Shown here in pieces: positions 3,666-32,484 of a DNA stretch of 64,000 bases (positions are counted from its first letter, which is position 1; every line of letters starts with the position of its first letter). Location: positions 15,848 through 79,847 of the forward strand of contig JANWYG010000008.1 in NCBI GenBank assembly GCA_025057015.1. The letters run 5' to 3'. The stretch is from Blastocatellia bacterium (GTDB taxonomy: Bacteria; Acidobacteriota; Blastocatellia; Chloracidobacteriales; JADJPF01). The translations under genes were made by a program, and so were the position numbers. The notes below the pieces were generated by a model. It did no database searches, was not told where the DNA came from, and saw only the letters and a program-made list of their open reading frames with translations.

Positions 3666-6368
3666 ATGGAGAAGCGGGTTTTGATTGAAAGAGTTCTGCC
3701 GATAAGGAAGCTGTCCGAAGAAAGTCGGCGGGAGAAAGCTATTCGTCACGGCCATATCTCTACGCTTCACGTCTGGTGGGCAAGAAAACCTCTGGTTGTC
3801 GCTCGTGCTGCCGTGCTTGGTGCGCTACTTGAGGACGATGAAAATGTTTCGTCGGAGTTGATAGAGAGGTTATGTAAGTGGAAGCTGCATGATGGCAAGC
3901 CTGAAGGGCACAGCCTGCTTGAGCAAGTGAGAGGACTGATTCGGGAGCGTTTTTTGGGGAGACGACCTAAGGTTTTGGATTGTTTTGCCGGAGGAGGCAG
4001 CATCCCGCTGGAAGCGTTACGATTAGGCTGTGACACTTATGCCGTAGATTACAATCCTGTTGCGTATGTTGTTTTGAGAGGAACGATAGAATACCCTCAG
4101 CGGTATGGTAGGCAGCTAGTGGCAGCAGTCAGGCGCTGGAGTGAGTGGGTGTTAGAAAAAGCTGGGAAGGAGCTAGAGTGTTTTTATCCTCGTGTTGGTT
4201 GTGAGACGCCTGTTGCGTACATTTGGCGTCGGACAATTCGATGTCCGAACCCATCATGTGGGGTTGAAGTTCCGCTGACAACTCAATGGTGGTTGGCTAA
4301 GAGGGGAAGAAGGAGAGTGGCGTTGAAACCTATCTTGCGGGGTAATAGAGAAGTAGGTTTTGAATTGGTAGGAGATAAGGAGATAGACTTTGAGCCTTCG
4401 CTAGGGACGGTCAAGCGGGGTAGAGCAGTATGTCTAGCTTGCAATACTTCGATGAGAGGAGATTATGTGAAGGCGGAAGCGCGTGAAGGGCGAATAGGGC
4501 AGCGATTAGTAGCAGTGGCAAGGAAAGTGGATAAGAGGCGAGGGCGTAGCTATCGGCTAGCTGGCGAGGAAGATATAGCTGGTTTTCAGAAAGCAGAGAT
4601 GGCTCTAAAAGAGTTGCTTCGTACTCCTTCGCCTTGGGCGTTTGGGCTGTCTTGGGTGCCACAAGAACCGTCGCGCTTGGTAGGAGCGGGACGACAGCAA
4701 AGTGTTGAGGCAAGTTACGGTTTCTTAGAATGGGGCAAGTTCTTCAACAGTCGGCAGTTGATGGCGTTATGCACCTTTGGAAAGTGGGTACGGGAGGCAT
4801 ACAAGGAGATAGTCAATCAGACAGGCGACTATGAGTTCGCAAAAGCAGTGACTACATATTTGGGATTTGCGGTCGATAAAATGGCTGACCTACTTTCAGT
4901 CCTTACCGGTTGGAAACCTAATGCTGAATGTCCAGTGCACTTATTTGCTCATCACGCAATACCGATGTTGTGGGATTATGCAGAGGCCAATCCGCTTGCT
5001 GGGGCCAGTGCAAGCTGGGCAAGTCAGGTTGAAAGAATGCTTTCCGCACTAACTCTCTGTTTTGTGAACAATAGACGAACGGCGACTACTCATCTTGGCT
5101 CGGCAAATAGGCTTTTTTTTGAGGGAGGGAAGTTTGATGCGGTGGTTATAGATCCGCCATATGCAGATAGCGTACCTTACAGTGACCTGAGCGATTTTTT
5201 CTATGTATGGCTTAGGCGGATAATCGGAGACCTGTATCCAGAAGCTTTTAGTACAGAGCTAGTCCCAAAAGACGAAGAAGCAGTGGTCAATGCTGTGCGA
5301 TTTGGGGGAAAGAAACACGGAGAGCAGATAGCTAAGGCGCATTACCAGCGGCTAATGCGAGAGTCGTTTGCAGAGATCTACCGAGTCCTTAACTCAGAGG
5401 GTGTATGTATAGTGATGTTTAGTCATCGTTCGACTAGCGCTTGGGAGAGGCTAGTGAAAAGTCTTCTGGATGCAGGCCTCTATCCTACAGCTTCGTTTCC
5501 GGTACACACGGAGATGGAGGCATCGACGCATCAGCGAGGCAAGGCCGCAGTGCGCAGCACAGTTGTTATGGCATGCCGACGGCGCTCGGAAAATGCTGGA
5601 ATTGGGTGGTATCGAGAAGTAATGTCGGAGTTACGGCAGGTAGTTTGTGAGAGGCTAAGGGAGTTTTGGAGAGAAGGGATTCGTGGAGCGGACTTTCTCA
5701 TTTCTGCGATAGGTCCTGCTGTGGGCATTTTTGGCAAATATAGAGAAGTCAGACACTTGGATGGGACAGAAGTGAAAGTTGCGGAAGTTTTACAAGAGGT
5801 ACGTAAGGCGGTAGTGGAGTTTACTCTGCAACAGTTAGGGTTTGAGGCATTAGATGAGCCGACGCGTTTTTATATTTTCTACCGATGGGCATACGGGAGT
5901 AAGGAGATAGAATATGACGAAGCGAACAAGCTGGCGAAGGGTTTAGGAGTAGAGTTGAGCGAGATGGAGAGGAGGTATGGTTTGATTAATCGGGATGGAG
6001 ATGAGGTAAGAGTGTTGTCTTTCGAGGAGAGAAAAGGAATTTTGGAACAAGGGTGGAAGGTGAAGCGAGGGAATGAGAGATATGGAGTAGGAGAAAGAAG
6101 CTGTGTGATAGACCAGATACAAATTAGTCTTTTGTTATGGGAATATGGGCAAAGGAGTGAGGTGTTGAATTATTTGGCGAGTTTAGGGGTAAAGGAGGAG
6201 GGGCATAGTTTCTGGCGTGTAGCACAAGCAATTATGGAAGTAGAAGGTGGGGTTGTTGGTGTGGATGGAAGGGTAAGTAGAATAGAAAAGGAAGTTCGAG
6301 TGCTAGCCCAGCTTTTAGGGAGCAAGCAGGGTTTGATACGTGAGATGAGGGCAAAGGTAGTGGGGTAG
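3666..6368 (+). CDS. DUF1156-type (COG1743-like) Zn-ribbon DNA methyltransferase, probable N6-adenine/N4-cytosine class
   Basis: The N-terminus IRHGHISTLHVWWARKPLVVARA is the DUF1156 signature. SAM motif I is VLDCFAGGGSIPLEA (nt 3978-3998). The Cys4 ribbon is CPNPSC...CLAC (nt 4242-4442). Catalytic motif IV is VVIDPPYA, with DPPY at nt 5151-5162. Confidence 0.85.
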   Translation: MEKRVLIERVLPIRKLSEESRREKAIRHGHISTLHVWWARKPLVVARAAVLGALLEDDENVSSELIERLCKWKLHDGKPEGHSLLEQVRGLIRERFLGRRPKVLDCFAGGGSIPLEALRLGCDTYAVDYNPVAYVVLRGTIEYPQRYGRQLVAAVRRWSEWVLEKAGKELECFYPRVGCETPVAYIWRRTIRCPNPSCGVEVPLTTQWWLAKRGRRRVALKPILRGNREVGFELVGDKEIDFEPSLGTVKRGRAVCLACNTSMRGDYVKAEAREGRIGQRLVAVARKVDKRRGRSYRLAGEEDIAGFQKAEMALKELLRTPSPWAFGLSWVPQEPSRLVGAGRQQSVEASYGFLEWGKFFNSRQLMALCTFGKWVREAYKEIVNQTGDYEFAKAVTTYLGFAVDKMADLLSVLTGWKPNAECPVHLFAHHAIPMLWDYAEANPLAGASASWASQVERMLSALTLCFVNNRRTATTHLGSANRLFFEGGKFDAVVIDPPYADSVPYSDLSDFFYVWLRRIIGDLYPEAFSTELVPKDEEAVVNAVRFGGKKHGEQIAKAHYQRLMRESFAEIYRVLNSEGVCIVMFSHRSTSAWERLVKSLLDAGLYPTASFPVHTEMEASTHQRGKAAVRSTVVMACRRRSENAGIGWYREVMSELRQVVCERLREFWREGIRGADFLISAIGPAVGIFGKYREVRHLDGTEVKVAEVLQEVRKAVVEFTLQQLGFEALDEPTRFYIFYRWAYGSKEIEYDEANKLAKGLGVELSEMERRYGLINRDGDEVRVLSFEERKGILEQGWKVKRGNERYGVGERSCVIDQIQISLLLWEYGQRSEVLNYLASLGVKEEGHSFWRVAQAIMEVEGGVVGVDGRVSRIEKEVRVLAQLLGSKQGLIREMRAKVVG

Positions 6369-6379
6369 TGTGGGGGGCT

Positions 6380-6858
6380 GCGGCTTTGTGCAATCTCTGT
6401 GTCCTTTGTGTCTCTGCGGTGAGAAAGAAGGATAAAACCACAGAGGCACAGAGGACACAGAGGGAGCACAAAGGGTTGGTTGGGGAAAAGGAGTAAGCAG
6501 CAGAGCGAGTAGGCAGAGCGACTCTGTGCAATCTCTGTGTCCTTTGTGTCTCTGTGGTGGGGAAGAAAGATAAAACCACAGAGGCACAGAGGACACAGAG
6601 GGAGCACGAAGGGTTGGTTGGGGAAAGGAAGTAAGCAGCAGAGCGAGTAAGCACAGAGCGGCTTTGTGCAGTCTCTGTGTCCTTTGTGTCTCTGTGGTGA
6701 GAAAGAAAGATAAAACCACAGAGGCACAGAGGATACAGAGGGAGCACGAAGGGTTGGTTGGGGGAAGGAAGTAAGCAGCAGAGCGAGTAAGCACAGAGCG
6801 GCTTTGTGCAATCTCTGTGTCCTTTGTGTCTCTGTGGTGAGGAAGAAAGATAAAATCA
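6380..6858 (+). repeat. Tandem array (3 full copies plus 1 truncated) of a 138-140-bp unit, each with a 26-bp-stem hairpin, between the methyltransferase and ATPase genes
   Basis: Unit starts (gtgca) are at 6388, 6526, 6666 and 6806. Arm pairs lie at 6395-6420/6437-6462, 6533-6558/6575-6600 and 6673-6698/6715-6740. The last copy stops inside the loop and right arm at about 6858. The inter-arm spacers are conserved between units. Confidence 0.95.
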
Positions 6859-6913
6859 CAAAACTTTAAGACACTTGGTATATACGAACGGGTATTGCTG
6901 AGAGGTAATCAGG

Positions 6914-9550
6914 GTGATGTCAGAAGGAATCCAGCAGATATGGAGAGTGTGCGAGCTACATTCAGATGTTTTGGCTCATGATCTTGCTCCATCGTCATTT
7001 GCTATTAGTTTGCACCATGTAGAACAAGGTACAGCTGATAGGGATTATGCTGATCCAGAGCGGTTTTTCCAGAAAACTTTTATAACTGCGAGTCTAGGCA
7101 GGCTTTTGGAAGGGGTACTGGCACGCCTTGCTGGTGTAGAAAGGCAAGGTGCACCTATCTTGCAGTTGGAGACACATTTTGGTGGCGGCAAGACCCATGC
7201 GATGACGGCGATATTTCACTTGGTACGTCATCCAGAAGTTGCTGAAGGGGAGAAAGCTTTCCAGCCTATCTTGGCAAACCTCAACATTCGCGCTATCCCC
7301 CGCAATATTAGAGTGGCAATACTTGATGGGCGAGGCTTAGATGTTCGAGAGCGGCGACCTGAACGAGGGATAGTTATTCGAACTCTCTGGGGTGAATTAG
7401 GCTACCGATTAGGACAAAAAGAAGGCTACGCGTTAATGGCAGATGCTGATAGAGAGCGTCTCGCTCCTGGTAGCGAGGTGCTGACCGAGTTTCTTAGACA
7501 CTATCAACCTTTTGTTATCCTGATGGATGAAGTTTTGGAGTACTTGGTCAAGGCTCGCAGCGTTAAGGTTGGAGATAGCAGTCTTATGGAACAAACAGGC
7601 ACTTTTCTAGCTGCATTGACTGCAGCAGTGAGTACATGCTCTCGTGGTGTGCTTATTGCATCTTTGCCTGCTTCCTCGCTAGAAGTTCCGGCTGAAAGTA
7701 GCGAAGCTGCTAGAAGGCTGTTTCAATATGCAAAGAAAGTGTTGGGTCGATTGGAGTTGATAGAGGTGCCAGTGGCTCAAGACGAGATATTTGGAGTTTT
7801 GCGAAAGAGACTGTTTAGTGATATCGGCAATGAGCGCAAGCGCGAGAAGGCTGTTGATGCGCTGCAAGGTTACTACAACAAGTACGCTCACTTTTTCCCA
7901 AAGCGACTCTGTTCACTTGAGTACAAGAAGCGGATGCTTTTGGCTTATCCTTTTCATCCTGTACTAATCGACCTGCTTTATGAGCGCTGGGGACTACAGC
8001 CACAGTTTCAACGGACAAGAGGGATTTTGAGGCTTCTAGCTTTGGTATTGCGTCATTTATGGCGGCATCGTCCTAACTCAGCTCTTCTTGTCCAGCCGCA
8101 TCACCTCGACTTTTCCGATCCCCAGATTCGTGGAGAGATTGTGAAACTCCTAGGTAGCTGCTTTGAACCCGTCATTGTGGGTGATATTTTGCGGAGGGCT
8201 GCTGAGGTAGAACAGAAATTGGGCGGTGATTATGATTTGGAGGCATTAGGCAAGGGCGCTGCTACTTGCGCTTTGCTTTACGGCATTTCGGCAGATGCCT
8301 GGGCTGTCGGGGCAACAGAAGAGGAGATCAGTACTGCTTTACTGAGACCTGACGTCAATCCTGCAATGGTTTCAGAGGTGTTAGGACGGCTGCGCGAAGA
8401 GCTTTGGTATCTTCGTTGCCGTGACAAGCGATATTACTTCACTGCTAGGCCTAACCTTAACAAGATAATCTTAGACTATGAGAGTACCTGTGAGGAAAAG
8501 AGATTAGAACAAGAGTTTGACATTTGGCTACGGCGAGTTGCTGGCAGAAATGAAGGGACATTTCAAGTTGTCGTTGCTACTTTAGAGCCAACGGCCGTGC
8601 CGGACTACCCACGTCCGACACTAGTGGTGCTCAGGCCTGAGGTTGAGAACGACCGAGAATGGATGAAGAAAGCGGTGCAGTATGCAGGCAAAGCCATCCG
8701 CAAGCATAAAAACATGCTAATCTTCTTGGCAGCCTTGCGGGATACCTTTGAAGCGATCCGAAGCGTTCTTAAACGGTGGTGGGCACTTCAATATGTCAGT
8801 AACTCTTGTTTATTCAAGGACTTAAGCAATGAAGACAAAGAGCAGCTCAAAGAGCAGTTGAAAGACAAGGAGGCAGAGCTGGAGACTTTGCTGTTGAAGA
8901 CTTACGCTCGTCTTTACCGTCCGACTTGTGATGGTGTGGAAGAGGTTCTACTGCGTCAAACATCCGAGACGTTCAAGGTAAAGACCTTAAGTCAAATTGT
9001 TGAGTTAGCGTTAAAACAAGAGGGCATCTTGTCGGAAGCGTTATCTCCCGAATTTCTTGTAGCGAGTTTACAAAGCATTTTGGAGCAGCGGAGAGAAGTT
9101 TCCTTACAGCAGGTAGAGATGTTACTTACTAGTGTTCCAGGGAAGCCGATAGTAAAAGATCCTCGAAGGGCATTAACCCGGGCTATTCAGGAAGGAGTGC
9201 GGAAAGGCATTTTTGGCATTCGCATTGGTGACAAGGTTTGTATCGATGAAGAGATTCCGGCAGGTAAGCTTCGTGGACCGAATATAGCTGTTGTTCCACT
9301 TAGTACACCACCTCTACCGTCTCTTCGGCCGACACAACCTCTAACTTTGCGCGTTCGGACAGTTACGCGGATGCTTTACCCGTTGTTGCAAGCAGCGGAC
9401 AAACTGAGGGGAGTAGAAGCATCTGTGGTGTTGGAAGTTCAAGATCAGGCAGGAGGAGAGCTGGCAAAGATACGCGAGGAATTAGACAAGCTCTTCCGAG
9501 ATTATAATTGCACTGTGGAGTGGCGGGAAGAGACATCTGAAAACTGCTAA
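6914..9550 (+). CDS. DUF499-type (COG1483-like) P-loop ATPase
   Basis: Walker A-like LETHFGGGKTHAMTA lies at nt 7178-7195. Walker B is PFVILMDEVLEY (nt 7514-7534). The N-terminal block DPERFFQKTFITASL..LL is typical of DUF499 as I recall it. The start is GTG 6914 or ATG 6917, with a gagagg RBS-like site upstream. Confidence 0.8.
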   Translation: MMSEGIQQIWRVCELHSDVLAHDLAPSSFAISLHHVEQGTADRDYADPERFFQKTFITASLGRLLEGVLARLAGVERQGAPILQLETHFGGGKTHAMTAIFHLVRHPEVAEGEKAFQPILANLNIRAIPRNIRVAILDGRGLDVRERRPERGIVIRTLWGELGYRLGQKEGYALMADADRERLAPGSEVLTEFLRHYQPFVILMDEVLEYLVKARSVKVGDSSLMEQTGTFLAALTAAVSTCSRGVLIASLPASSLEVPAESSEAARRLFQYAKKVLGRLELIEVPVAQDEIFGVLRKRLFSDIGNERKREKAVDALQGYYNKYAHFFPKRLCSLEYKKRMLLAYPFHPVLIDLLYERWGLQPQFQRTRGILRLLALVLRHLWRHRPNSALLVQPHHLDFSDPQIRGEIVKLLGSCFEPVIVGDILRRAAEVEQKLGGDYDLEALGKGAATCALLYGISADAWAVGATEEEISTALLRPDVNPAMVSEVLGRLREELWYLRCRDKRYYFTARPNLNKIILDYESTCEEKRLEQEFDIWLRRVAGRNEGTFQVVVATLEPTAVPDYPRPTLVVLRPEVENDREWMKKAVQYAGKAIRKHKNMLIFLAALRDTFEAIRSVLKRWWALQYVSNSCLFKDLSNEDKEQLKEQLKDKEAELETLLLKTYARLYRPTCDGVEEVLLRQTSETFKVKTLSQIVELALKQEGILSEALSPEFLVASLQSILEQRREVSLQQVEMLLTSVPGKPIVKDPRRALTRAIQEGVRKGIFGIRIGDKVCIDEEIPAGKLRGPNIAVVPLSTPPLPSLRPTQPLTLRVRTVTRMLYPLLQAADKLRGVEASVVLEVQDQAGGELAKIREELDKLFRDYNCTVEWREETSENC

Positions 9551-9729: not shown

Positions 9730-9773
9730 ATAAGTAGTTGCTTACTCTGCTATAAGTAGTTGCTTACTCTGCT
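9730..9773 (+). repeat. Perfect 22-bp tandem duplication (ataagtagttgcttactctgct x2)
   Basis: Read directly from the sequence: 9730-9751 is identical to 9752-9773. Confidence 0.95.
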
Positions 9774-10033: not shown

Positions 10034-10102
10034 GACGCTTACCGTACTCTGACTTCAGAAAATGGATTGCGTATATAAAATAATCTAGTAGGAGGAAAGT
10101 TC

Positions 10103-10579
10103 ATGAATCGCAGAGACTTTGCTAAGACAATACTCGGAGCTGCTTTTGCTGGAATAGTGGCAGGAACTGTGTCAGCAGAAGACAAGAAGCCGGAAGAGAA
10201 GAAGGAAGAAAAGAAAGCTGGTCATAGCTGTAGAGGTGAGAAGGCCTCTTGTAAAGGTGAGAAGAAGGCTTCGTGCAAGGGTGAGAAGGCCTCTTGTAAG
10301 GGCGAGAAGGCTTCGTGCAAGGGCGAGAAGGCTTCGTGCAAGGGCGAGAAGGCTTCGTGCAAGGGTGAGAAGGCCTCTTGCAAGGGCGAGAAGGCTTCGT
10401 GCAAGGGTGAGAAGGCCTCTTGCAAGGGCGAGAAGGCTTCGTGCAAGGGTGAGAAGGCCTCTTGTAAGGGCGAGAAGGCTTCGTGCAAGGGTGAGAAGGC
10501 CTCTTGCAAGGGCGAGAAGGCTTCGTGCAAGGGTGAGAAGGCCTCTTGTAAGACTAAGGATAGCTGTAAGTCGGTGTAG
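10103..10579 (+). CDS. Secreted Cys-repeat peptide or small protein (158 aa): Tat-type signal plus 15 CKGEKAS-like heptads; candidate MNIO substrate (RiPP precursor)
   Basis: MNRRDFAKTILGAAFAGIVAGTVSA carries RRxFxK, a hydrophobic core and VSA. A KE-rich spacer follows. Then come CRGEKAS, CKGEKKAS, 13x CKGEKAS, CKTKDS and CKSV, giving 17 Cys. It has a strong SD and lies directly upstream of DUF692/DUF2063 genes. Confidence 0.8.
   Translation: MNRRDFAKTILGAAFAGIVAGTVSAEDKKPEEKKEEKKAGHSCRGEKASCKGEKKASCKGEKASCKGEKASCKGEKASCKGEKASCKGEKASCKGEKASCKGEKASCKGEKASCKGEKASCKGEKASCKGEKASCKGEKASCKGEKASCKTKDSCKSV
10229..10546 (+). repeat. In-frame 21-bp tandem repeat (15 units) encoding the Cys heptads, built from two synonymous unit types
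   Basis: Unit A is aag ggt gag aag gcc tct tgY. Unit B is aag ggc gag aag gct tcg tgc. The order along the array is A, KK-variant, A, B, B, B, A, B, A, B, A, B, A, B, A. Confidence 0.95.
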
Positions 10580-10596
10580 TTTATTCTTTGTTGTGT

Positions 10597-10642
10597 AAAG
10601 GTCGAAGGGAAGTATTTAAAGTTCTTCGACCTTTACTTTTTT
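10597..10642 (+). terminator. Intrinsic terminator or attenuator between the peptide gene and the DUF692 gene
   Basis: aaaggtcgaag (10597-10607) pairs perfectly with cttcgaccttt (10624-10634) across a 16-nt loop, followed by acttttttg. Confidence 0.55.
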
Positions 10643-10655
10643 GAGGTTTTTGCTT

Positions 10656-11498
10656 ATGACGAATCGTTGGAATTTACCTGACTTAGGTCTAGGCGTTGGG
10701 CTTAGGACTGTTCATTATCAGCATATTCTTTCGAACTATCCTAGAGTGGACTGGTTTGAGATCATTTCCGAGAATTTTCTAGATACAGAAGGGCGGCCAA
10801 TGTATGTTCTCGATCAGGTAGCTGAGCGTTATCCCGTGGTGATGCATGGTGTGTCGATGTCTATAGGTAGTACGGATCCGATCAATTTTGAGTATTTGAG
10901 GAAGTTAAAAGCACTCGCAAAGCGGATCAATGCTCCTTGGGTTTCAGATCATCTTTGTTGGACTGGAGTTAGCGGCAAAAACGTACATGATCTTTTGCCT
11001 ATGCCATATAACGAGGAGTCACTCAAGCATACTGTTGAGAGGGTCAAGATAGTCTCAGACTTTTTGGAGCGCCCCTTGGTATTGGAGAATCCGTCGTCAT
11101 ATATAGAATTTGCTAACAGCAGTATGACCGAGTGGGATTTTTTAGCTGCGCTGTTAGAAGAAGCGGACTGTGGAATGTTGCTTGATATAAACAACGTCTA
11201 TGTGAGTTCGTTTAACCACTCGTTTGATCCCAAGCGATATATAGACGCTATACCTGCTGATCGGGTAGTTCAGTATCATTTAGCTGGTCATACGAGCTAT
11301 GGCACGCACATTATAGATACGCACAGCGACTATGTGATAGACGAGGTATGGGGTCTTTATAAGTATGCGAACGAGGTCATAGGCAGTAGGGCGACGTTGT
11401 TAGAGTGGGATGACGACATACCTGATTTCGACACTGTGCATAACGAAGTGCTTAAGGCGCAGGAATATAAGAAGCAGGGGGTTCTTGTCTATGGTTAG
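10656..11498 (+). CDS. DUF692 / MNIO family (multinuclear non-heme iron oxidative) peptide-modifying enzyme, MbnB/BufB/HvfB-like
   Basis: Family blocks are present: LGLGVGLR..H, DWFEIISENF, VMHGVSMSIGS, WVSDHLCW, DLLPMPY, LVLENPSSY, MLLDINNVYVS and YHLAGHT. I prefer ATG at 10656 (MTNRWN...) over the track's TTG at 10641, which lies inside the terminator tail. Confidence 0.85.
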   Translation: MTNRWNLPDLGLGVGLRTVHYQHILSNYPRVDWFEIISENFLDTEGRPMYVLDQVAERYPVVMHGVSMSIGSTDPINFEYLRKLKALAKRINAPWVSDHLCWTGVSGKNVHDLLPMPYNEESLKHTVERVKIVSDFLERPLVLENPSSYIEFANSSMTEWDFLAALLEEADCGMLLDINNVYVSSFNHSFDPKRYIDAIPADRVVQYHLAGHTSYGTHIIDTHSDYVIDEVWGLYKYANEVIGSRATLLEWDDDIPDFDTVHNEVLKAQEYKKQGVLVYG

Positions 11499-12339
11499 TG
11501 AGATTCCGCTTGCTGTAATGCAGCAGTGGATGCAGGCAGTAATAATGGCCAAGGGAGATGATCTCGAGGCGATACATTCACCGGAAGCGACTAAGTTTCT
11601 TTCACCACAACAAGTAGAGTATTTTATCTTGCCGTCCAGAACGCTTGAGCCTATCGAGCGTTTGCACATTTACCGAAGGATGTATATCTTGAGGTTGTGT
11701 GAAGCATTGGCTTCGGATTTTGAAGCATTTAGCGACTATGTTGGTAAGGACAAGTTTGAAGAGTTAGTTACTGACTACGTAGCTATTTATCCTTCTACGA
11801 GTTACAGCCTAAACCCACTTAGTTACCGGTTTCCTGAGTTTCTACGCTCTCGCAAAGATATTGAGCCGAAGCGGTTTCTTGTAGAGCTTGCTGAGTTAGA
11901 GCTTGCTATAACTCAAGTTTTCGACATGCCACAAAGTCCGTTGTTATCTTCAGAGCAGGTTAGTGCGGTACCGCCCGAAGCCTGGGAGAGGGTGATTCTT
12001 CGCCCGATCAAGGCATTGCGACTGCTGAAGTTTGACTATCCTGTAAATGACTACCTTACTGCTTTTAGGAACGAAAGCGTGCTACCGGAGATACGTAGAA
12101 AGAACAACTATGTACTAGTATATCGTCCTGGCTATAGTATGAGGCGTGAGTCATTAAGCAGGCAGGCATATTTGCTGTTGAGGCACTTACTAGATGGTAA
12201 GCCGATAGCTCTTGCTATAGAGAGTTGTATTGGGCAGGGCGTTAGCAGGAAGCTCTTACAGGAGAAGCTATTTTACTGGTTTAGGGATTGGGTGGCCTCT
12301 GGGGTATTTAGCTCTTTGGAGTGTTCAGCTAGAGATTAG
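11491..12339 (+). CDS. DUF2063-type partner protein (MbnC/BufC/HvfC-like peptide-binding subunit)
   Basis: Its position immediately after DUF692 is the canonical pairing. The start ATG at 11491 overlaps the DUF692 stop by 8 nt (atggttag). Size is about 280 aa. The domain call rests mainly on context and general N-terminal resemblance. Confidence 0.65.
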   Translation: MVSEIPLAVMQQWMQAVIMAKGDDLEAIHSPEATKFLSPQQVEYFILPSRTLEPIERLHIYRRMYILRLCEALASDFEAFSDYVGKDKFEELVTDYVAIYPSTSYSLNPLSYRFPEFLRSRKDIEPKRFLVELAELELAITQVFDMPQSPLLSSEQVSAVPPEAWERVILRPIKALRLLKFDYPVNDYLTAFRNESVLPEIRRKNNYVLVYRPGYSMRRESLSRQAYLLLRHLLDGKPIALAIESCIGQGVSRKLLQEKLFYWFRDWVASGVFSSLECSARD

Positions 12340-26756: not shown

Positions 26757-29700
26757 TCACTTTTTCTTATCATCTCCTGAATATTTTATACCTACTTTCT
26801 GTAGGAATTCTTTTGGAGGTATGCTGCCAACCAAAGCGAAGACTATGTCGTTTGGGATGGTTCCTATTATTTGGTCGTCACGTGTTTTGGCAAGTACGAC
26901 TTCTTTTTCTCTAATTTCTTTGATTGCTGCGCCGAAATAGGCCTTAATCTTACCGTGGTCTATGCAGTAATAGACCCACATTTTGTTTTCAAGAGTTAGG
27001 TCTTTGGGAAAGTCTGAGCGGATAACGAGGGTGACTTCGTTTGCTCCTTCTTTGGGAAAGATGACTGTGCCGTCGGGTTGGCGCTTACCGGTCAGATCTA
27101 CTGCGGCTTCGACGGCAGAATTGCCTGCTCCTACCACCACTATGTGCTTACCTTTGTAGGCGGATGGATCTTGCAGCCGATATTCTACCCGTCCTTCTAC
27201 TTCACCGGGTACTCCAAGTTTACGTGGTTCGCCGGCATTACCGAGCGCTAGTACTACCTTACGGGCTTTGTATCCGGCTGGGTTCTTCTTAGTTTTGACG
27301 ATGAAGAAGCCTTTTTCTTTGACTATTTCAGTACAGCCCTCGTACTCATTTATCTTGAGTTTGAGCTTAGCACAAGCTTCATCCCACCAGCGCAGCATAT
27401 TTTCTTTAAGATCGCCGGGGCCTTCAAGTCTAATTGCACCAAGTGGGGGATCAGTAGGGTTAAACGGATTGAAGGCTACATACTTACCTGCTGGATACTT
27501 TTCTGCTATCGTCGAATACTTGCAGCTTTGTTCAAGGGCGATGTATGAAAGCCCTAGTTCTGCGGCACGGGCTGTAGCTGAGATGCCGCCCGGGCCTATG
27601 CCTACTATCGCTACGTCGTACTCAGCAGCGGGAACACGACCTTCGGCCTTAAGTTTCTCAGCTATTTTCTCTACAGCGATACGGCCTTCTTTGATGGCGT
27701 TACGGATAAGCGGTACGCCTGAGACATCGCCTACTAGGTAGATGCCTTCTACGTGTTCTGTTTCGAATCCTTCGCTTGCTCCCTTACGCAGAGGTTTTGG
27801 GGCCTCACGTATGGTTTTCTTTGTATTGATAAGCACGCACGACTGCGGCACGGTTGGACAGGCTTGTTGACAGCCTGTATCTTCCATGCATTGCTCGTAG
27901 TTGACTACTATGGCGTGATGCTCTTGTTCGTCAAATCCAAGGACGTCTTGGGGGCAGACGAGTATGCAACTATGGCAGCCGATGCAAGTACTATAGTTAA
28001 TGATAGGTTGTGGCACAGGTCGTAGTTTAGCTGCTTCTTCTGCACGTTTGATCCATTCTTGATCCCATTTTAGGGCGTATTTGATATCGGCAGGCTCGCT
28101 ACGGCTCTTACCTATTTCTATCTCCTTACCTTTGATTTTGTCTTGTGTTTTGCGTTTGCGCCTTGAATCAAAGAGGACAAATCCGATGATGGAAATTGGC
28201 AACAGGCTCAGTAGCATTGCCCAGCCTGCGGGAGTAAGGCCACCAAACTTTGCTGCAAACGAGGTCCATTCCCAGGCTGAACCTCCTCGATAGACGGTGT
28301 CTACTTTGTAGACCTGTTCTGAAGTGAGCTTACGGCCTCGGCCGCCGGCAGGTCGAAGTGTTGCCACCAGTGCTGGGCTTTCGCTGTGTTGTATATGGCA
28401 GGAATTGCAATCTATATCAAAAGTGCCTGCAAGAGAGGTCAACTTTTGTACGTCCTCTATGTCTTGTGGATTACCTTGAGGGTCATACTCTACTGTGTGG
28501 CAGACGGCACACTTCTTTTGGTCTATTTCTTTTGGTTTGTCGAGTGATGTATGACAGTCGGTACAGCGAGCAGTGTTGTTGCGGTCGCCACGCATATGAA
28601 CGAAGTGAAATTTGCCTTTTGGGTCGAGTATTTCTGCATCTGGGATCTGGATCTTCTTGTTTATCGGCTCAGTCCACTTCCACTCGCCGTTAACTACGGG
28701 GTAGCCAAGCCGGCCTCCATGGGGTATGCCGAGCGGTTCGCCGGTTTGTTTACGTGCTTTTGGGTGGCTTGGGTTAGCTTTGTGGCAATCAAAACACATA
28801 GTACGGGCTACGGTTGCCGGCCTAAAGTCTGTGCCTTTATGTTCTGTGTGGCAGTCTACGCAGGCGAGGCCTGCAGCATTATGTGCTGCAATGGCATTTT
28901 GAGGATTGAAATGTTCGGTTGTGTGACAACCTATACAGGTTTTCTGCATAGGTCCTGCGGCAGCGTGGCAAGCTGAGCATTTGTTTCCTGCTGTAGTCTT
29001 TGCAGCAAGCAGGATGCCACTTTCGGGCAAGAAGGACGCGAGGTTTATGCGGTCACTTTCCGTAGCGGCGTGTGGGGCAGAAACGTTGCCTGGAGAGTAA
29101 AGATCTTCCCAGAAGAATATCGCAATGGCGCCTATCAGAAGGATAAAGGAGCCAAAAGTAAGCAAGAAACCTTTGGGCCAGGGACGGATCAAATCAGCAG
29201 TAGGTCTCCAGTTAAACCTTTTTTTTCCAAGGTGTAAATTGAACTGTTTATATTCGGGAGCTATTTCTTTGGGGTGTAATTCTGACTTGTCGGCGAGTTT
29301 TTGAGCCCCGCCGGTCTGAGCAAGTTTGCGACGCTCCCAGAAGGCATCCATAGTCTGCTGGAAGCGTTTTTGTTCTTCTTCAGGTAGAGCTAGTATCGAA
29401 GTGAGCAAACCAGTCATCCCACGTTGTAGTCGCCCGGTGGTACCTAGCAACCCGCTCAATCTACCTGAAGCTTTAGCTAGTGGAGCTGTCTTAAACCCTG
29501 ATCCTTCAAGTACCTTAAGTATGTCTTGACTAAGCAGAGCTGTTTTGCCAGCTGCCATTGCAGCGCGCGGATCACCTAGTAATCTGTTACCTAGATTACC
29601 TGCTGCGACTGAATCGACGGTACGCTCCACTTCGATAATAATATCCTCGTTATCTAGATCGATTTTGAGGATGAATACACCGATTTGAACAGTGTCTCCT

Positions 29701-29942
29701 GGCTGTATCTGCACGATTTCTATAGGTGATCCGTTGACAAGCGTGCCATTTGATTTCGAGAGGTTTTGTATCCAAAAATCCCCTTCAATGATCGCTATGC
29801 CTGCATGTAAACGCGACACGGATGGATGGTTGAGCAGCAAGTCATTTTCCGTACTCGATCCTATGGTTAGGTTATCACTTTCTATGACTAGTTCATCAGT
29901 TACTATGTCTTTGCGTCTTACTATGAACTTTGCCTCTCGCAT
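26757..29942 (-). CDS. Multidomain redox protein: FHA domain, TM, 7x CxxCH multiheme region, TM, 4Fe-4S ferredoxin motif, FAD/NAD(P)-dependent oxidoreductase
   Basis: FHA block (residues ~5-95): GSSTENDLLLNHPSVSRLHAGI...NLSKSNGTLVNG. Heme motifs: CSACH, CIGCH, CVDCH, CFDCH, CTDCH, CAVCH, CNSCH (residues 322-517, nt 28392-28979). TM segments lie at about residues 258-278 and 573-591. Fe-S motif: CIGCHSCILVCP. Dinucleotide motifs: VAIVGIGPGG and IVVVGAGNSA. Confidence 0.8.
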   Translation of the reverse strand: MREAKFIVRRKDIVTDELVIESDNLTIGSSTENDLLLNHPSVSRLHAGIAIIEGDFWIQNLSKSNGTLVNGSPIEIVQIQPGDTVQIGVFILKIDLDNEDIIIEVERTVDSVAAGNLGNRLLGDPRAAMAAGKTALLSQDILKVLEGSGFKTAPLAKASGRLSGLLGTTGRLQRGMTGLLTSILALPEEEQKRFQQTMDAFWERRKLAQTGGAQKLADKSELHPKEIAPEYKQFNLHLGKKRFNWRPTADLIRPWPKGFLLTFGSFILLIGAIAIFFWEDLYSPGNVSAPHAATESDRINLASFLPESGILLAAKTTAGNKCSACHAAAGPMQKTCIGCHTTEHFNPQNAIAAHNAAGLACVDCHTEHKGTDFRPATVARTMCFDCHKANPSHPKARKQTGEPLGIPHGGRLGYPVVNGEWKWTEPINKKIQIPDAEILDPKGKFHFVHMRGDRNNTARCTDCHTSLDKPKEIDQKKCAVCHTVEYDPQGNPQDIEDVQKLTSLAGTFDIDCNSCHIQHSESPALVATLRPAGGRGRKLTSEQVYKVDTVYRGGSAWEWTSFAAKFGGLTPAGWAMLLSLLPISIIGFVLFDSRRKRKTQDKIKGKEIEIGKSRSEPADIKYALKWDQEWIKRAEEAAKLRPVPQPIINYSTCIGCHSCILVCPQDVLGFDEQEHHAIVVNYEQCMEDTGCQQACPTVPQSCVLINTKKTIREAPKPLRKGASEGFETEHVEGIYLVGDVSGVPLIRNAIKEGRIAVEKIAEKLKAEGRVPAAEYDVAIVGIGPGGISATARAAELGLSYIALEQSCKYSTIAEKYPAGKYVAFNPFNPTDPPLGAIRLEGPGDLKENMLRWWDEACAKLKLKINEYEGCTEIVKEKGFFIVKTKKNPAGYKARKVVLALGNAGEPRKLGVPGEVEGRVEYRLQDPSAYKGKHIVVVGAGNSAVEAAVDLTGKRQPDGTVIFPKEGANEVTLVIRSDFPKDLTLENKMWVYYCIDHGKIKAYFGAAIKEIREKEVVLAKTRDDQIIGTIPNDIVFALVGSIPPKEFLQKVGIKYSGDDKKK

Positions 29943-29961: not shown

Positions 29962-32484
29962 CTAGCGCCACAAATAGTATACGACCTGAACTATGTGGAT
30001 CAGCATACAAGCAAGCATCAGCGATGTCAGAATTACATGTGGAGGTAGCCACAGCTTTAGAGCTCTGTGTATGTAGAGCAAAGCGTCGATACGCCTTGCT
30101 GTCACAGCTGCCTTAATCAGCAGTGCCAGTCGCTCTGCATCTTGCTTTTCTAGAGAAGCCAGCTCCTTGCTAAACAGCTCTTGAGTTGCTCTTACTAACT
30201 CGTCGAGCGTTTCTCTTTTGAGGTATTGACGTATTAGAAAGCCGGGAGAGTAGGTACTATTGAGTATCTCTTCTCGCGCAGCGAGAAATTTGCTAAAGTC
30301 GCCTTCGCGGCCAGCTTTCTTCATGTTTATCTCGGTCGTTAAGGTATAGTCTGCTATCTCTTGATAGAGCTCCTCTCGACGTCTTTCAAGATCTTCTCGA
30401 AGTAGGGGTTCACCTTCGATCTTGGTAAGTAACCTCGGCCCTATCCAGTAAAGAAATATGCCTATTAGGCCGGTAAGAATTACCAAGTCGAACAGTATCA
30501 TCAGGATAGCGGTAAAAGGCCCGCCAAGGCTAGTACCTCCATGTAGGAGCAATACTATTCCTGCGATAACTCCGGCATAGACATGCGCCAGCATCCAGTA
30601 ACGAAGGGCTCCGGCACGTCTTTGCCATATTTGGCGACGTATCGGATAAAGCATTACTACTATTATGCCAAGCAGTCCCACTATACCGGTAATCCATCGG
30701 AAATTGAACCAACTTGTCTTTAATAGTGGTACGCCTAGTCCATAGGTTACTATGCCAGCGAGGTTGCCTCCTACAAGTAGCAAGGTAAGCAACAAACCTA
30801 TGAGGTGTGCTACCTGCTTGCCTCTGTCACGAATTAGCAGCCTGCGGCCGTAGATTAGGTTAGCTTCTCGCTTAAGTGCCTTACCGAGCAAGCCTTTTAT
30901 TTCGTCGAATTCAGCCGTAGGTTGGATGCGCATGCAAGCGCCTGTTGGACAATTTTCTACACAGTTATATTTGTGCGTTTTATAAAGCTTGTTTCCTTCT
31001 TTATCTGTAGGATTGAGAGGGGTATTGTTGCATAAATTACACTTTATAGCTACTAAGTCTTCTTCTGCGGTGACCGGCTTAGGTTTCTCATCGTACCGTA
31101 ACTGAAGCAGTTGTAGAAAACCTTTTGGTTTATCCTGGATACTAGAGGAGGTTTTATTGTCTTTTGGTTTACCCTTGGCAGCTGCAGAAGGAGTTCGAGT
31201 CAGTTCTTTTCTTTGAATGAGGGAAATTGCGTTGTACGGGCACTGGGTAGCACAATCACCACAGCCTATGCAGATTGCCGGGTTGATGTCAACTTGCCCG
31301 CCTTGAAATCTCCCTATAGCACCTGTAGGGCAGCCGGTCATGCATTCAGGATCTTTGCAGTGCAAGCAGACGGAAGGTGCAAGTAAGCTTTGGTTAAGTT
31401 GTGCAGTGAGAGACTTTGACCTTAGCAAGTGAATACCGCGCCGTACGAGTCTCGACTTGCCGTGAATATTGTGACAAGCAAGTGAACAATTGCCGCAGCG
31501 CACGCATAGATCCATGTCCATAACCATCAGGTTGGTTGCATCTGCAAGGCCCTTGTCTAAGATCTTTTCCTGGGCTTGCTTAACTGCTGGAGTGTAGGCT
31601 AATTCTTTTGCAGGCTGGGTCGGAGTACCGATTTGTCCAAACGGAGAGAGTTCTTTGAATAATGCGGATTTCAGTTCAGGAGTGAGTTTTTTGTACTGTA
31701 TTTCGAGCACTTCTGTGCGGCTAACTACGGAGCTTTTATATGGCCAGCGAGCGTTATCTAAAGAGAGTCCTTCTAAACCTAGGCAATATCCAGAGCCTAT
31801 GAAATCAAAATCTTCACCTGAAGAACGCCTTAACCACCCGTCGCGAATTATTATTACCCTATCCATGGGGCGGCCTTCTTGAGATAGAACGTGTCCTCTT
31901 GAGAGAACCTTAAAATCAGATATGCTAGAAATTTGCTTTTTGATTTCTTCATTGACTTGCAGTTCGGTCAAAGTAGAGCTTCGGCCGTTGTTTCTGTAAG
32001 CAAGGTCAAGTGCAGCACCAAACTTTTTGAGCTTGCGTAGTACTCTAAGGGCAGGGCGTTGGATTTCAAGCAAAGTAGCTCCTTCTTCGTGATGAGCTTT
32101 TACAGTAGCACTGCGCTGTACGCCTGCAAGGACTGACATTTCCCCAAAGGGGCTGCCACGCCTAAACACGGCTACCGGCTCGGTTTTTTCTTTGATAAAG
32201 ACCTCGACGGCGCCTTCGACAACTATGAAAAATGTGTTCGTGTCCCAGTCACCTTGCTTTACCACTTCCAGCCCTGGTGGATACTTATACAGCTTGATGT
32301 AAGGGCCTACTTTCTTTCCAGGTCCGTAGTTGCGACCGTAGACAGCCACCTCTAGATCTACCGCATAGGTGTATCCATGACCTTCTTCAAATTCGGCAAG
32401 TTCTTCTATTGCAGATATGCCTTTGATTGCTTGTAGTACCGTATGGTGATTTTCTATCTGTTGGCGTTTTAATTCTTTGCCCAT
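29962..32484 (-). CDS. Cyclic-nucleotide-binding-domain protein fused to poly-ferredoxin (4Fe-4S dicluster) domains and a C-terminal polytopic membrane domain
   Basis: cNMP motif FGEMSVLAGVQRSATVKA plus a second degenerate cNMP-like domain. Cys clusters: CVRCGNCSLAC, CLHCKDPECMTGCP, CIGCGDCATQCP, CNLCNN...CVENCP. At least 4 TM helices carry conserved-looking His residues. Confidence 0.8.
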   Translation of the reverse strand: MGKELKRQQIENHHTVLQAIKGISAIEELAEFEEGHGYTYAVDLEVAVYGRNYGPGKKVGPYIKLYKYPPGLEVVKQGDWDTNTFFIVVEGAVEVFIKEKTEPVAVFRRGSPFGEMSVLAGVQRSATVKAHHEEGATLLEIQRPALRVLRKLKKFGAALDLAYRNNGRSSTLTELQVNEEIKKQISSISDFKVLSRGHVLSQEGRPMDRVIIIRDGWLRRSSGEDFDFIGSGYCLGLEGLSLDNARWPYKSSVVSRTEVLEIQYKKLTPELKSALFKELSPFGQIGTPTQPAKELAYTPAVKQAQEKILDKGLADATNLMVMDMDLCVRCGNCSLACHNIHGKSRLVRRGIHLLRSKSLTAQLNQSLLAPSVCLHCKDPECMTGCPTGAIGRFQGGQVDINPAICIGCGDCATQCPYNAISLIQRKELTRTPSAAAKGKPKDNKTSSSIQDKPKGFLQLLQLRYDEKPKPVTAEEDLVAIKCNLCNNTPLNPTDKEGNKLYKTHKYNCVENCPTGACMRIQPTAEFDEIKGLLGKALKREANLIYGRRLLIRDRGKQVAHLIGLLLTLLLVGGNLAGIVTYGLGVPLLKTSWFNFRWITGIVGLLGIIVVMLYPIRRQIWQRRAGALRYWMLAHVYAGVIAGIVLLLHGGTSLGGPFTAILMILFDLVILTGLIGIFLYWIGPRLLTKIEGEPLLREDLERRREELYQEIADYTLTTEINMKKAGREGDFSKFLAAREEILNSTYSPGFLIRQYLKRETLDELVRATQELFSKELASLEKQDAERLALLIKAAVTARRIDALLYIHRALKLWLPPHVILTSLMLACMLIHIVQVVYYLWR

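What the first reader, a model, noticed from the sequence alone, without database searches (positions are those of the whole stretch)
10103..10579. Tat-signal peptide with 17 Cys in 15 CKGEKAS heptads: candidate new repetitive precursor for an MNIO (DUF692) enzyme
Seen in sequence: the ORF encodes MNRRDFAKTILGAAFAGIVAGTVSA, which has a twin-arginine RRxFxK motif, a hydrophobic core and a VSA cleavage-like site. A Lys/Glu-rich spacer follows. Then come CRGEKAS, CKGEKKAS, 13 perfect CKGEKAS units, CKTKDS and CKSV. The repeat region has no aromatic or hydrophobic residues, so a conventional folded domain is unlikely. Established knowledge: DUF692/MNIO enzymes with DUF2063 partners oxidatively modify Cys in ribosomal peptides and proteins to give copper-binding heterocycle/thioamide groups. 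Examples I recall are methanobactin MbnBC, bufferin BufBC and Haemophilus HvfBC acting on repeated EGKCG motifs. Inference: this product is an exported, highly polyvalent metal-binding polymer-like peptide. As far as I recall, the known families use Sec signals and different motifs. The heptad motif, the copy number and the Tat-type signal would therefore make this a distinct precursor class. A Tat signal would also fit export after cytoplasmic modification or metal loading.
Basis: partly seen in the sequence, partly recalled or inferred. Interest (0 to 1): 0.85.

Follow-up and report, generated by a model that had tools for sequence, protein, structure and literature searches.

The report
Heptad-repeat cysteine peptide for a bufferin enzyme
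A soil Acidobacteriota genome encodes an exported peptide made almost only of 15 CKGEKAS repeats, placed in front of the enzyme pair that makes copper-binding bufferin peptides; it is an extreme, repeat-expanded offshoot of a known precursor family, not a new class.

Summary
ORF 10103-10579 encodes 158 aa: a twin-arginine-type signal (MNRRDFAK…VSA), a Lys/Glu spacer, then CRGEKAS, CKGEKKAS, 13 perfect CKGEKAS, CKTKDS and CKSV (17 Cys). A hairpin follows, then an MNIO that passes NCBIfam's BufB cut-off, then an overlapping DUF2063 partner gene.

The peptide matches no precursor model, but it descends from the BufA2 ("Cys-Lys" captophorin) lineage:
- The closest MNIOs (58-75% identity) nearly all sit behind BufA2-like precursors.
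- Metagenome contig L089 carries almost the same signal peptide, one BufA2 six-Cys module and a KASCKG heptad tail.
- L007 has several BufA2 modules and a CKSKES tail.

The RRxFxK signal is not special to this peptide. At least 35 of 80 related precursors have it, although the papers I read describe only Sec signals. CKG heptad arrays also occur elsewhere, some of them without an adjacent MNIO.

Most likely product: an exported, polyvalent 5-thiooxazole Cu(I) binder.

The copy number is uncertain, because two short-read assemblies break inside the array.

Verdict: new variant of a known kind, moderate interest.

The parts
10090..10095 (+). Shine-Dalgarno-like AGGAGG, 7 nt upstream of the precursor ATG
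   Evidence: Read directly from the sequence.
10103..10177 (+). Signal peptide, residues 1-25: MNRRDFAKTILGAAFAGIVAGTVSA. It has a twin-arginine motif N-R-R-D-F-A-K, a Gly/Ala/Thr-rich h-region and a V-S-A cleavage-type end.
   Evidence: The same RR-x-F-x-[KR] motif occurs in 36 related precursors, with RR and F invariant and K/R at +5 in 32 of 37. L089 begins with the near-identical MNRRDFAKIMLGAAVAGIVSGSTAMA. The Tat route is inferred, not shown.
10178..10228 (+). Lys/Glu-rich spacer EDKKPEEKKEEKKAGHS. It ends in the His that precedes the first Cys, as in the BufA2 'KHxCKG' core start.
   Evidence: and alignment A1. H41, C43 and G45 fall in columns that are conserved in the BufA2-like relatives.
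10229..10546 (+). Array of 15 heptad-type units: CRGEKAS, CKGEKKAS and 13 x CKGEKAS. At DNA level it is a 42-nt super-repeat made of two synonymous 21-nt variants.
   Evidence: All differences between units are synonymous third-position changes.
10547..10579 (+). Degenerate C-terminal units CKTKDS and CKSV, plus the stop codon. They resemble the CKSKES…CKSR tail of the L007 precursor.
10595..10643 (+). 15-bp hairpin followed by a U-run, lying between the precursor gene and the MNIO gene. It is a likely partial terminator or mRNA-stabilising element.
   Evidence: Folding gives -23 kcal/mol, z = -3.95, and 0 of 200 shuffles fold as well. Hairpins at the same position but with unrelated sequence occur in L089 (z = -3.9) and L007 (z = -4.9). 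The consensus terminator scan missed it because its loop is 12 nt. The function is inferred.
10656..11498 (+). MNIO (DUF692) enzyme of BufB type, 280 aa.
   Evidence: Pfam PF05114 at 1.5e-108. NCBIfam BufB equivalog 359.8 bits (cut-off 310); HvfB 259.7 (below 360); MbnB 54.6 (below 325). The exact protein is on record as MCS6884394.1 and MDW8412476.1, from Acidobacteriota / Blastocatellia MAGs. The C-terminal motif is LLEWDDD, against LLERDFN in the HvfB-type structure 3BWW.
11491..12339 (+). DUF2063 / HvfC-like partner protein (BufC, PME-type 1), 282 aa. It overlaps the MNIO stop by 8 nt.
   Evidence: Pfam PF09836 scores 60.1 bits (cut-off 27.2). NCBIfam HvfC scores 50.1 bits over profile positions 24-233 of 237, below its cut-off of 142. 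The gene call and start come from the MAG annotation.

Best explanation
This is a three-gene bufferin-2-type ('captophorin', Cys-Lys group) operon from a Blastocatellia (Acidobacteriota) genome. Its precursor has lost the canonical BufA2 six-Cys module. What remains is an amplified version of the short KASCKG tail motif that its relatives carry.

Proposed mechanism:
1. The precursor is made in excess over the enzymes, because a hairpin and U-tract lie after its gene.
2. In the cytoplasm the BufB-type MNIO and its DUF2063-RRE partner oxidise Cys residues that are followed by Lys into 5-thiooxazoles. This is a four-electron oxidation, -4 Da per site.
3. The hydrophilic product is exported through its twin-arginine-type signal peptide and cleaved after VSA.
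4. The resulting ~133-residue polycationic/anionic chain, carrying up to 17 thiooxazole thiolates, sequesters Cu(I) in the periplasm.

Shown here: the sequence, the operon, the family assignment of both enzymes, homology of the N-terminus to BufA2-like precursors, and the existence of intermediate forms.

Inferred: the modification itself, how many Cys are modified, the Tat route, and copper as the ligand.
For: - Operon and enzyme identity.
- The 20 or so nearest MNIOs (63-75% identity; Acidobacteriota, Planctomycetota) almost all follow BufA2-like precursors. Eleven of 13 aligned precursors hit NCBIfam BufA2.
- L089 has almost the same signal peptide, one BufA2 module (NF050166, E = 8e-10) and the tail KASCKGKSSCKGTEPKASCKGKDAKASCKGEKASCKGEKSSCKG. 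A hairpin follows, then an MNIO starting MKPNRWNLPDLGFGIGLRTVHY, against MTNRWNLPDLGLGVGLRTVHY in the window.
- L007, which has the closest MNIO (75%), carries an RR signal, at least 4 BufA2 modules joined by KVEKASCKS linkers, and a CKSKES tail.
- All 17 Cys are followed by Lys or Arg. The MNIO has Asp after the putative catalytic Asp (EWDDD), where the Lys-Cys-type enzyme 3BWW has Phe. PMC13097082 describes this as the Cys-Lys-type determinant.
- Chemistry and function come from the literature. BufB/BufC install 5-thiooxazoles, bufferins bind Cu and protect against copper stress (PMC11626156). All characterised MNIO-PME1 clusters install 5-thiooxazoles (PMC13097082).
- Tat: the RR-x-F-x-[KR] motif is conserved in 36 relatives, and their h-regions are less hydrophobic than those of non-RR relatives (2.05 vs 2.36, p = 7e-5).
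Against: - There is no experimental data for this or any heptad-type precursor.
- The BufA2 model scores only 11 bits on this peptide.
- In Buf1 and Buf2 only the central Cys are modified and the outer ones form a disulfide (PMC11626156), so full modification of 17 Cys is not assured.
- Among the 80 related MNIOs the residue after EWD is mostly Ala. Asp or Glu occurs in only about 13, so the specificity argument is weak in this clade.
- No Tat component and no other RR-signal protein is present in the 64-kb window. No dedicated predictor could be run.
- The window's own h-region hydrophobicity (2.24) lies between the RR and non-RR group means.
- No DoxX, copper sensor or ECF sigma/NrsF gene is adjacent, so copper regulation is not indicated locally.
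- A CKGKEGS heptad family in Obscuribacterales has no MNIO within 5 kb. Such arrays can therefore exist without a neighbouring maturase.
Confidence: 0.68

Rival explanations
1. The chemistry and function are as proposed, but export is through Sec. The RR motif would be tolerated, or would serve another purpose such as contact with the RRE partner.
For: Every experimentally studied bufferin or oxazolin signal is described as Sec-type, and Sec export was shown for BufA1 (PMC11626156). The window's h-region hydrophobicity (2.24) is close to that of the non-RR relatives (2.36). There is no basic 'Sec-avoidance' residue before the VSA site. An unfolded hydrophilic chain is a natural Sec substrate.
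Against: RR and F are invariant, and K/R at +5 is present in 32 of 37 relatives whose mature parts differ widely. That is the canonical S/T-R-R-x-F-L-K pattern. NCBIfam's only signal-type hit is a TAT-target model, and it is weak (E = 0.019). Small unstructured hydrophilic proteins can be Tat substrates (Richter et al. 2007, J Biol Chem 282:33257, listed in the references of PMC13186574; content recalled from memory).
Confidence: 0.25
2. The peptide is a multi-core precursor. After modification and export it is cut at its many Lys residues into short thiooxazole-containing peptides of about 7 residues, which act as small diffusible metallophores.
For: There are 13 identical units, each containing two Lys. 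PMC13097082 states it is still unknown whether EGKCG products stay as one polypeptide or are digested.
Against: No protease or dedicated exporter is encoded in or next to the operon. Buf1 and Buf2 are found as intact core peptides in the periplasm (PMC11626156).
Confidence: 0.12
3. The Cys residues are not modified. The peptide acts as a periplasmic metallothionein-like thiolate binder or redox buffer, and the MNIO acts on something else or on only a few sites.
For: Obscuribacterales peptides with (CKGKEGS)4-8 and a Sec signal sit next to a TetR gene, with no MNIO within 5 kb. P0001 and P0007 also lack an adjacent MNIO.
Against: The gene order A-B-C is tight and B and C are translationally coupled. 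There is no other Cys-containing candidate ORF upstream of the MNIO. Every close MNIO relative has a Cys-Lys precursor directly upstream. Free thiols in an oxidising periplasm would form disulfides.
Confidence: 0.07

Closest known systems
Bufferin 2 (BufA2 / Buf_6/12Cys; 'Cys-Lys' group of captophorins) with BufB2/BufC2, as in Caulobacter vibrioides buf2ABC (PMC11626156, PMC12452194, PMC13097082)
   Same: Three-gene A-B-C operon without DoxX. The MNIO passes the BufB equivalog cut-off and the partner is a DUF2063 protein. The precursor has an N-terminal signal peptide. Cys residues are followed by Lys-Gly, and a His precedes the first Cys. The closest MNIO relatives all have BufA2-like precursors.
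   Different: The canonical six-Cys module (CKGxNxCKGxGGC…CAGKNxCKGKGGC) is absent, and the BufA2 HMM scores 11 bits against a cut-off of 60. The Cys spacing is a uniform C-x6-C heptad repeated 15 times. There are 17 Cys and no obvious pair of flanking Cys to form a disulfide. The signal is twin-arginine-type, whereas the literature describes only Sec signals.
Oxazolin / fontiphorin / gonophorin (HvfA, FonA; Buf_EGKCG, 'Lys-Cys' captophorins)
   Same: A repetitive, low-complexity, Cys-containing exported precursor with many modification sites (7 in FonA, up to 58 Cys in the family). It is processed by a closely related MNIO with a DUF2063-RRE partner and binds Cu polyvalently.
   Different: The motif is Lys-Cys-Gly (EGKCG), in 5-mers or 17-residue repeats, not Cys-Lys-Gly heptads. 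The window's MNIO is below the HvfB cut-off (259.7 vs 360) and has Asp where HvfB-type enzymes have Phe. FonBC did not process substrates with a charged residue after Cys (PMC13097082).
Unclassified MNIO-adjacent small ORFs with 1-18 Cys and signal peptides (PMC12452194); related peptides found here (P0002, P0004, P0012, P0014, L032, L037)
   Same: Short signal-peptide proteins with SCKGE/CKGKDG-type low-complexity repeats, lying directly upstream of BufB-like MNIO and DUF2063 genes, with or without DoxX.
   Different: Those found here have 2-6 imperfect units and Sec or lipoprotein signals. The window has 15 near-perfect units and an RR signal.
Candidatus Obscuribacterales CKGKEGS-heptad peptides (P0141, P0169 and about 90 relatives, found here)
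   Same: Signal peptide, charged spacer, then perfect C-K-G-x4 heptads (4-8 copies), about 110-125 aa in total.
   Different: The signal is Sec-type with an unrelated sequence. The genes sit after a TetR gene, with no MNIO or DUF2063 within 5 kb. Whether the similarity is homology or convergence cannot be decided.

Membership tests
Captophorin / bufferin-type MNIO-PME1 gene cluster | MNIO of the BufB/HvfB clade | tested here: met
   NCBIfam NF050167 BufB scores 359.8 bits against a cut-off of 310. Pfam PF05114 gives E = 1.5e-108.
Captophorin / bufferin-type MNIO-PME1 gene cluster | DUF2063-RRE partner (PME-type 1) encoded directly after the MNIO | tested here: met
   Pfam PF09836 scores 60.1 bits against a cut-off of 27.2. 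HvfC model positions 24-233 of 237 are aligned, but at 50.1 bits against a cut-off of 142. The partner gene overlaps the MNIO gene by 8 nt. The RRE fold itself was not tested, and no PDB sequence hit was found.
Captophorin / bufferin-type MNIO-PME1 gene cluster | Cys-containing precursor with an N-terminal signal peptide directly upstream (order A-B-C) | tested here: met
   The signal is of twin-arginine type.
Captophorin / bufferin-type MNIO-PME1 gene cluster | Cys converted to 5-thiooxazole; product binds Cu | not testable with these tools
   Needs mass spectrometry, UV, NMR and metal titration.
BufA2 (Buf_6/12Cys) precursor family | Match to the family HMM at its curated threshold | tested here: not met
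   NF050166 scores 11.1 bits (E = 0.35) against a cut-off of 60, and gives no hit at E <= 0.01. The relatives L089 (38.7 bits) and L007 (51.4 bits) match significantly but also fall below the cut-off.
BufA2 (Buf_6/12Cys) precursor family | Six (or twelve) conserved Cys in the module CKGxNxCKGxGGC…CAGKNxCKGKGGC | tested here: not met
   The module is absent. Only C-[KR]-G-E-K-(K)-A-S units are present.
BufA2 (Buf_6/12Cys) precursor family | Common descent: shared signal peptide, shared core start, and intermediate forms | tested here: met
   The signal peptide is near-identical to that of L089, and H-x-C-[KR]-G aligns with the BufA2 start. L089 and L007 combine BufA2 modules with KASCK-type tails.
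Buf_EGKCG / oxazolin (HvfA) precursors | Repeated E-G-K-C-G (Lys-Cys) motifs, and an MNIO of HvfB type | tested here: not met
   There is no KCG motif, because every Cys is preceded by Ser. HvfB scores 259.7 against a cut-off of 360. The enzyme motif is EWDD, not ERDF.
BufA1 (DUF2282) precursors | Pfam PF10048 match, four conserved Cys | tested here: not met
   No Pfam family matches at E <= 1.
Methanobactin (MbnA/MbnB/MbnC) | MbnB equivalog; leader-core precursor without a signal peptide | tested here: not met
   TIGR04159 scores 54.6 against a cut-off of 325. The precursor has a signal peptide.
Tat substrates | S/T-R-R-x-F-L-K motif before a moderately hydrophobic h-region | tested here: met
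   The window has N-R-R-D-F-A-K followed by TILGAAFAGIVAGTVSA. The motif is conserved in 36 relatives.
Tat substrates | Export depends on TatABC; Tat genes present in the genome | not testable with these tools
   No TatA-like motif and no other RR signal was found in the 64-kb window. The rest of the genome is not available, and TatP/SignalP are not available.

The most novel reading that the evidence does not exclude
A whole clade of bufferin-2-type RiPP precursors in Acidobacteriota, Planctomycetota and Verrucomicrobiota, this one included, would be exported by the Tat pathway, some of them as Tat lipoproteins. Export after cytoplasmic heterocycle installation, and possibly after folding or metal loading, would then be a natural, so far undescribed route for a RiPP.

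Within that clade, the window's peptide would show that a bare C-K-G heptad, with no BufA2 fold and no separate leader, is sufficient for iterative processing by BufBC. The product would be a 17-site thiooxazole 'copper sponge'.
Probability: 0.4. Interest if true: 0.7.

Novelty: new variant of a known kind. Interest (0 to 1): 0.5.

Why it matters
1. It offers a natural minimal substrate. A 7-residue unit repeated 15 times could show what BufB/BufC really recognise, and whether they act processively along a chain. PMC12452194 raises that question for long EGKCG proteins.

2. Together with L089 and L007, it shows how these metallophore precursors evolve. Short Cys-Lys tail motifs are amplified and the ancestral module is lost.

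3. The conserved RRxFxK signal in this clade makes a Tat export route for a post-translationally modified peptide directly testable. The bufferin, MNIO-landscape and captophorin papers I read (PMC11626156, PMC12452194, PMC13097082) mention only Sec. A full-text search for natural RiPP precursors with twin-arginine signals returned only engineered or unrelated uses.

4. Practical point: arrays like this break short-read assemblies, so public protein sets under-represent them.

Tried and rejected
- Pfam and NCBIfam scans of the precursor gave nothing above threshold.
- The first homologue search at E <= 1e-3 gave only two hits, one of them (P0001) not MNIO-linked. It was repeated at E <= 10 to see the weak 'cloud' of relatives.
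- An exact look-up of the precursor found no record, because public contigs break in the array.
- Supplement text searches for CKGEKAS/KASCKG found nothing relevant in PMC12452194 or PMC13097082. The 'CKGEK' hits are FonA test constructs.
- The exhaustive HMMER search of 1.84 billion representatives gave 1012 hits at E <= 0.001. Most of the 150 listed were composition-driven long or spurious repeat proteins; only P0141 and P0162 were relevant.
- Aligning the upstream region with L089 showed no conserved operator beyond the RBS and start codon.
- A synteny idea, that the DUF255 gene at 1003-2544 corresponds to L089's upstream ORF, was rejected because the two show no similarity.
- A search of the window for TatA-like motifs or other RR signals found none.
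- The PDB sequence search for the partner protein gave no hit.
- The AlphaFold2 single-sequence model had pLDDT 80.8 for the best model and 49-81 across the five. Foldseek against the PDB found no match with E < 1. I treat this as inconclusive, because perfect repeats can give over-confident solenoid models (my own knowledge).
- The consensus terminator scan missed the hairpin after the precursor gene, which folding then recovered.
- A literature look-up of the MAG and run accessions found nothing.
Full report
**1. What is there**

- MNRRDFAKTILGAAFAGIVAGTVSA (residues 1-25)
- EDKKPEEKKEEKKAGHS
- CRGEKAS, CKGEKKAS and 13 perfect CKGEKAS units
- CKTKDS and CKSV

There are 17 Cys, and each is followed by Lys (16) or Arg (1). 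After residue 25 the composition is K39 E20 S18 C17 A16 G16, with no aromatic residue and a single Val.

Tandem Repeats Finder reports a 21-nt period and a stronger 42-nt period (7.5 copies, 94% match) at 10235-10552.

Three reading frames are open across the array, but the CKGEKAS frame is the coding one:
- AGGAGG lies 7 nt before the ATG.
- The two 21-nt unit variants differ only at third codon positions, and the changes are synonymous in this frame.
- Related loci encode homologous signal peptides followed by CKG motifs.

**2. Surroundings**

A 15-bp hairpin with a U-run lies 16 nt after the stop codon (10595-10643; -23 kcal/mol, z = -3.95). Hairpins of unrelated sequence occupy the same place in L089 and L007 (z = -3.9 and -4.9). 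This suggests a conserved attenuator or stabiliser that raises the precursor:enzyme ratio. That is an inference.

Gene 10656-11498 encodes a 280-aa MNIO:
- Pfam PF05114, E = 1.5e-108.
- NCBIfam BufB equivalog 359.8 bits, above its cut-off of 310.
- HvfB 259.7 bits, below 360; MbnB 54.6 bits, below 325.

Gene 11491-12339 overlaps it by 8 nt and encodes a DUF2063/HvfC-like partner.

There is no DoxX gene, no ECF sigma/NrsF pair and no copper gene nearby. Upstream are DUF1156 methylase-like and DUF499 ATPase-like genes. Downstream, on the other strand, are dapF, a PfkB kinase and others.

The identical MNIO and partner are on record from MAGs named Acidobacteriota / Blastocatellia bacterium.

**3. 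Assembly caveat**

The near-identical MAG contig L005 starts inside the array, and the Logan contig L006 starts just before its end. L005 differs from the window at only five positions in 11 kb, and all five are inside the array. They reflect a different order of unit variants.

The array is therefore real: an independent assembly shows at least 11 CKGEKAS units plus the two terminal units. The exact count of 13 perfect units depends on one assembly.

The closest relative, L007, has a 100-N gap inside its own repetitive precursor gene. Such genes are systematically under-assembled.

**4. What it is related to**

*Survey starting from the MNIO.* A scan of one genome per species returned 80 loci with 56-75% identical MNIOs, mostly from Acidobacteriota, Planctomycetota, Myxococcota and Verrucomicrobiota. 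The ORF directly upstream is in most cases a BufA2-like protein (…KHxCKGxNxCKGxGGC…CAGKNSCKGKGGCAVP), with one or two modules or, in L007, several. In an alignment of the window with 12 such precursors, 11 hit NCBIfam BufA2 and the window does not.

The window peptide still aligns with them over the signal peptide and the start of the core (H41-x-C43-[KR]-G45).

*Two intermediate forms.*
- L089, found by a motif-only scan of metagenomes, encodes:
  - MNRRDFAKIMLGAAVAGIVSGSTAMA
  - one BufA2 module (NF050166, E = 8e-10)
  - the tail HKASCKGKSSCKGTEPKASCKGKDAKASCKGEKASCKGEKSSCKGAEKK

  A hairpin follows, then an MNIO whose first 30 residues are nearly those of the window's enzyme.
- L007 has the closest MNIO (75% identity). 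Its precursor has an RR signal, at least four BufA2 modules joined by KVEKASCKS linkers, and a C-terminal CKSKES x4 tail.

The simplest reading is that the window's precursor arose in this lineage by losing the canonical module and amplifying the tail motif. The 42-nt DNA super-repeat with only synonymous differences points to recent amplification.

*Survey starting from the motif.* Weak sequence relatives form a cloud of small signal-peptide proteins with SCKGE-type repeats. Context could be read for some of them:
- P0002, P0004, P0012, P0014 and L089 are followed by MNIO plus DUF2063, with or without DoxX or a preceding ECF sigma/NrsF pair.
- P0001 and P0007/L088 are not.
- P0003's contig ends too early to tell.

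The exhaustive search did reveal a separate family of about 90 proteins in Candidatus Obscuribacterales. They have a Sec signal, a spacer and (CKGKEGS)4-8. In the two contexts read, they sit after a TetR gene with no MNIO within 5 kb. CKG heptad arrays as such are therefore neither unique to this window nor always MNIO-linked.

**5. The signal peptide**

N-R-R-D-F-A-K followed by a Gly/Ala/Thr-rich h-region and V-S-A is a textbook twin-arginine signal.

It is not peculiar to this peptide. At least 35 of the 80 related precursors carry it: 32 by pattern match plus L007, L020 and L066 by eye. L089 carries it too. Across these 36 relatives and the window:
- RR and F are invariant.
- K/R at +5 is present in 32 of 37.
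- The consensus is [NS]-R-R-[DE]-F-x-[KR].
- Their h-regions are less hydrophobic than those of the non-RR relatives (2.05 vs 2.36; Mann-Whitney p = 7e-5). The window, at 2.24, lies in between.
- Several Planctomycetota members combine RR with a lipobox Cys.

The bufferin, MNIO-landscape, captophorin and Antarctic-soil papers never use the words Tat or twin-arginine and speak of Sec signals. A full-text search for twin-arginine plus RiPP plus precursor peptide returned only engineered or unrelated uses.

The Tat route remains an inference. No Tat gene is present in the window and no predictor was available. It is plausible for this substrate, because small unstructured hydrophilic proteins can pass the Tat system (Richter et al. 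2007, cited in PMC13186574; content from my own knowledge). The bufferin authors themselves note that bulky modified peptides would be poor Sec substrates (PMC11626156).

**6. Mechanism**

From the literature:
- BufB/BufC are necessary and sufficient to convert Cys into 5-thiooxazoles (-4 Da each).
- Buf1 and Buf2 are periplasmic, bind copper and protect against copper stress. In Buf2 the four central Cys are modified and the outer two form a disulfide (PMC11626156).
- All characterised MNIO-PME1 clusters install 5-thiooxazoles. [quoted passage not shown]

The window's peptide belongs by motif to the Cys-Lys group. Its MNIO has LLEWDDD where the HvfB-type structure 3BWW has LLERDFN. This fits the reported Phe-to-Asp switch next to the catalytic Asp in Cys-Lys enzymes. 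The argument is weak, though, because in the 80 relatives that position is mostly Ala.

I therefore propose this sequence of events:
1. Cytoplasmic, probably iterative, thiooxazole formation along the array.
2. Export, most likely by Tat.
3. Cleavage after VSA.
4. Polyvalent Cu(I) sequestration in the periplasm.

How many of the 17 Cys are modified is unknown. So is whether the chain stays intact.

**7. Fold**

AlphaFold2 without an alignment gave a beta-solenoid-like model for the array: 5-residue strands, 2-residue turns and pLDDT above 90 in the best model. The five models ranged from 49 to 81 in mean pLDDT. Foldseek found only non-significant beta-helix matches. Perfect repeats are prone to such predictions, and modification rewrites the backbone at every Cys.

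**8. Verdict**

- The peptide is very probably an MNIO substrate and an exported polyvalent metal binder.
- It is a new variant within the BufA2 / Cys-Lys captophorin lineage, not a distinct precursor class.
- Its Tat-type signal is a property of a whole clade.

Two points go beyond the literature I read. One is the evolutionary route from folded six-Cys module to pure heptad polymer. The other is the conserved twin-arginine signal on these RiPP precursors.

Noticed in passing
window 6380-6860: A 140-nt tandem repeat (3.5 copies, 93% match) fills the gap between a DUF1156 methylase-like gene (3666-6368) and a DUF499 ATPase-like gene (6914-9550). The gene pair looks like a defence system.
   Followed up: no
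window 9730-9773: A perfect 22-nt direct repeat (ATAAGTAGTTGCTTACTCTGCT x2) lies about 330 nt upstream of the precursor start. It could be a regulator-binding site. It is not conserved upstream of the L089 precursor.
   Followed up: partly
L005:1-273; L006:1-60; L007:3535-3634: Short-read contigs begin inside or just after the heptad array. The closest relative has a 100-N scaffold gap inside its multi-module precursor gene. Repetitive bufferin-type precursors are therefore under-represented in public protein sets.
   Followed up: yes
L095:5001-5375; L097:5001-5342 (P0141, P0169 and about 90 relatives): A Candidatus Obscuribacterales family of Sec-signal peptides with (CKGKEGS)4-8 heptads. In both loci read, a TetR gene precedes them and no MNIO lies within 5 kb. 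Their function is unknown.
   Followed up: partly
L034, L036, L038, L041, L050, L074, L076 (upstream of the MNIO match): These mostly Planctomycetota BufA2-like precursors (L036 is labelled Acidobacteriota) combine the RR-x-F-x-K motif with a lipobox Cys. That suggests Tat-exported lipoprotein bufferins.
   Followed up: no
L092:4342-6030; L091:3525-4359: In L092 the MNIO and DUF2063 domains are fused in one 562-aa product, downstream of an ECF sigma, NrsF and precursor P0012. In L091 the MNIO is split into two ORFs, possibly by a frameshift.
   Followed up: no
L032 and L037 (upstream of the MNIO match): Ignavibacteriales and Bacteroidota precursors made of CKGKDG hexad repeats sit in front of related MNIOs. 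This is a second, independent low-complexity Cys-Lys array type.
   Followed up: no
window 26757-29942 (-) and 29962-32484 (-): A 1061-aa protein combines FHA, cytochrome c3, 4Fe-4S and pyridine-nucleotide disulphide oxidoreductase domains. Next to it is an 840-aa protein with cNMP-binding and 4Fe-4S domains. Both architectures are unusual.
   Followed up: no
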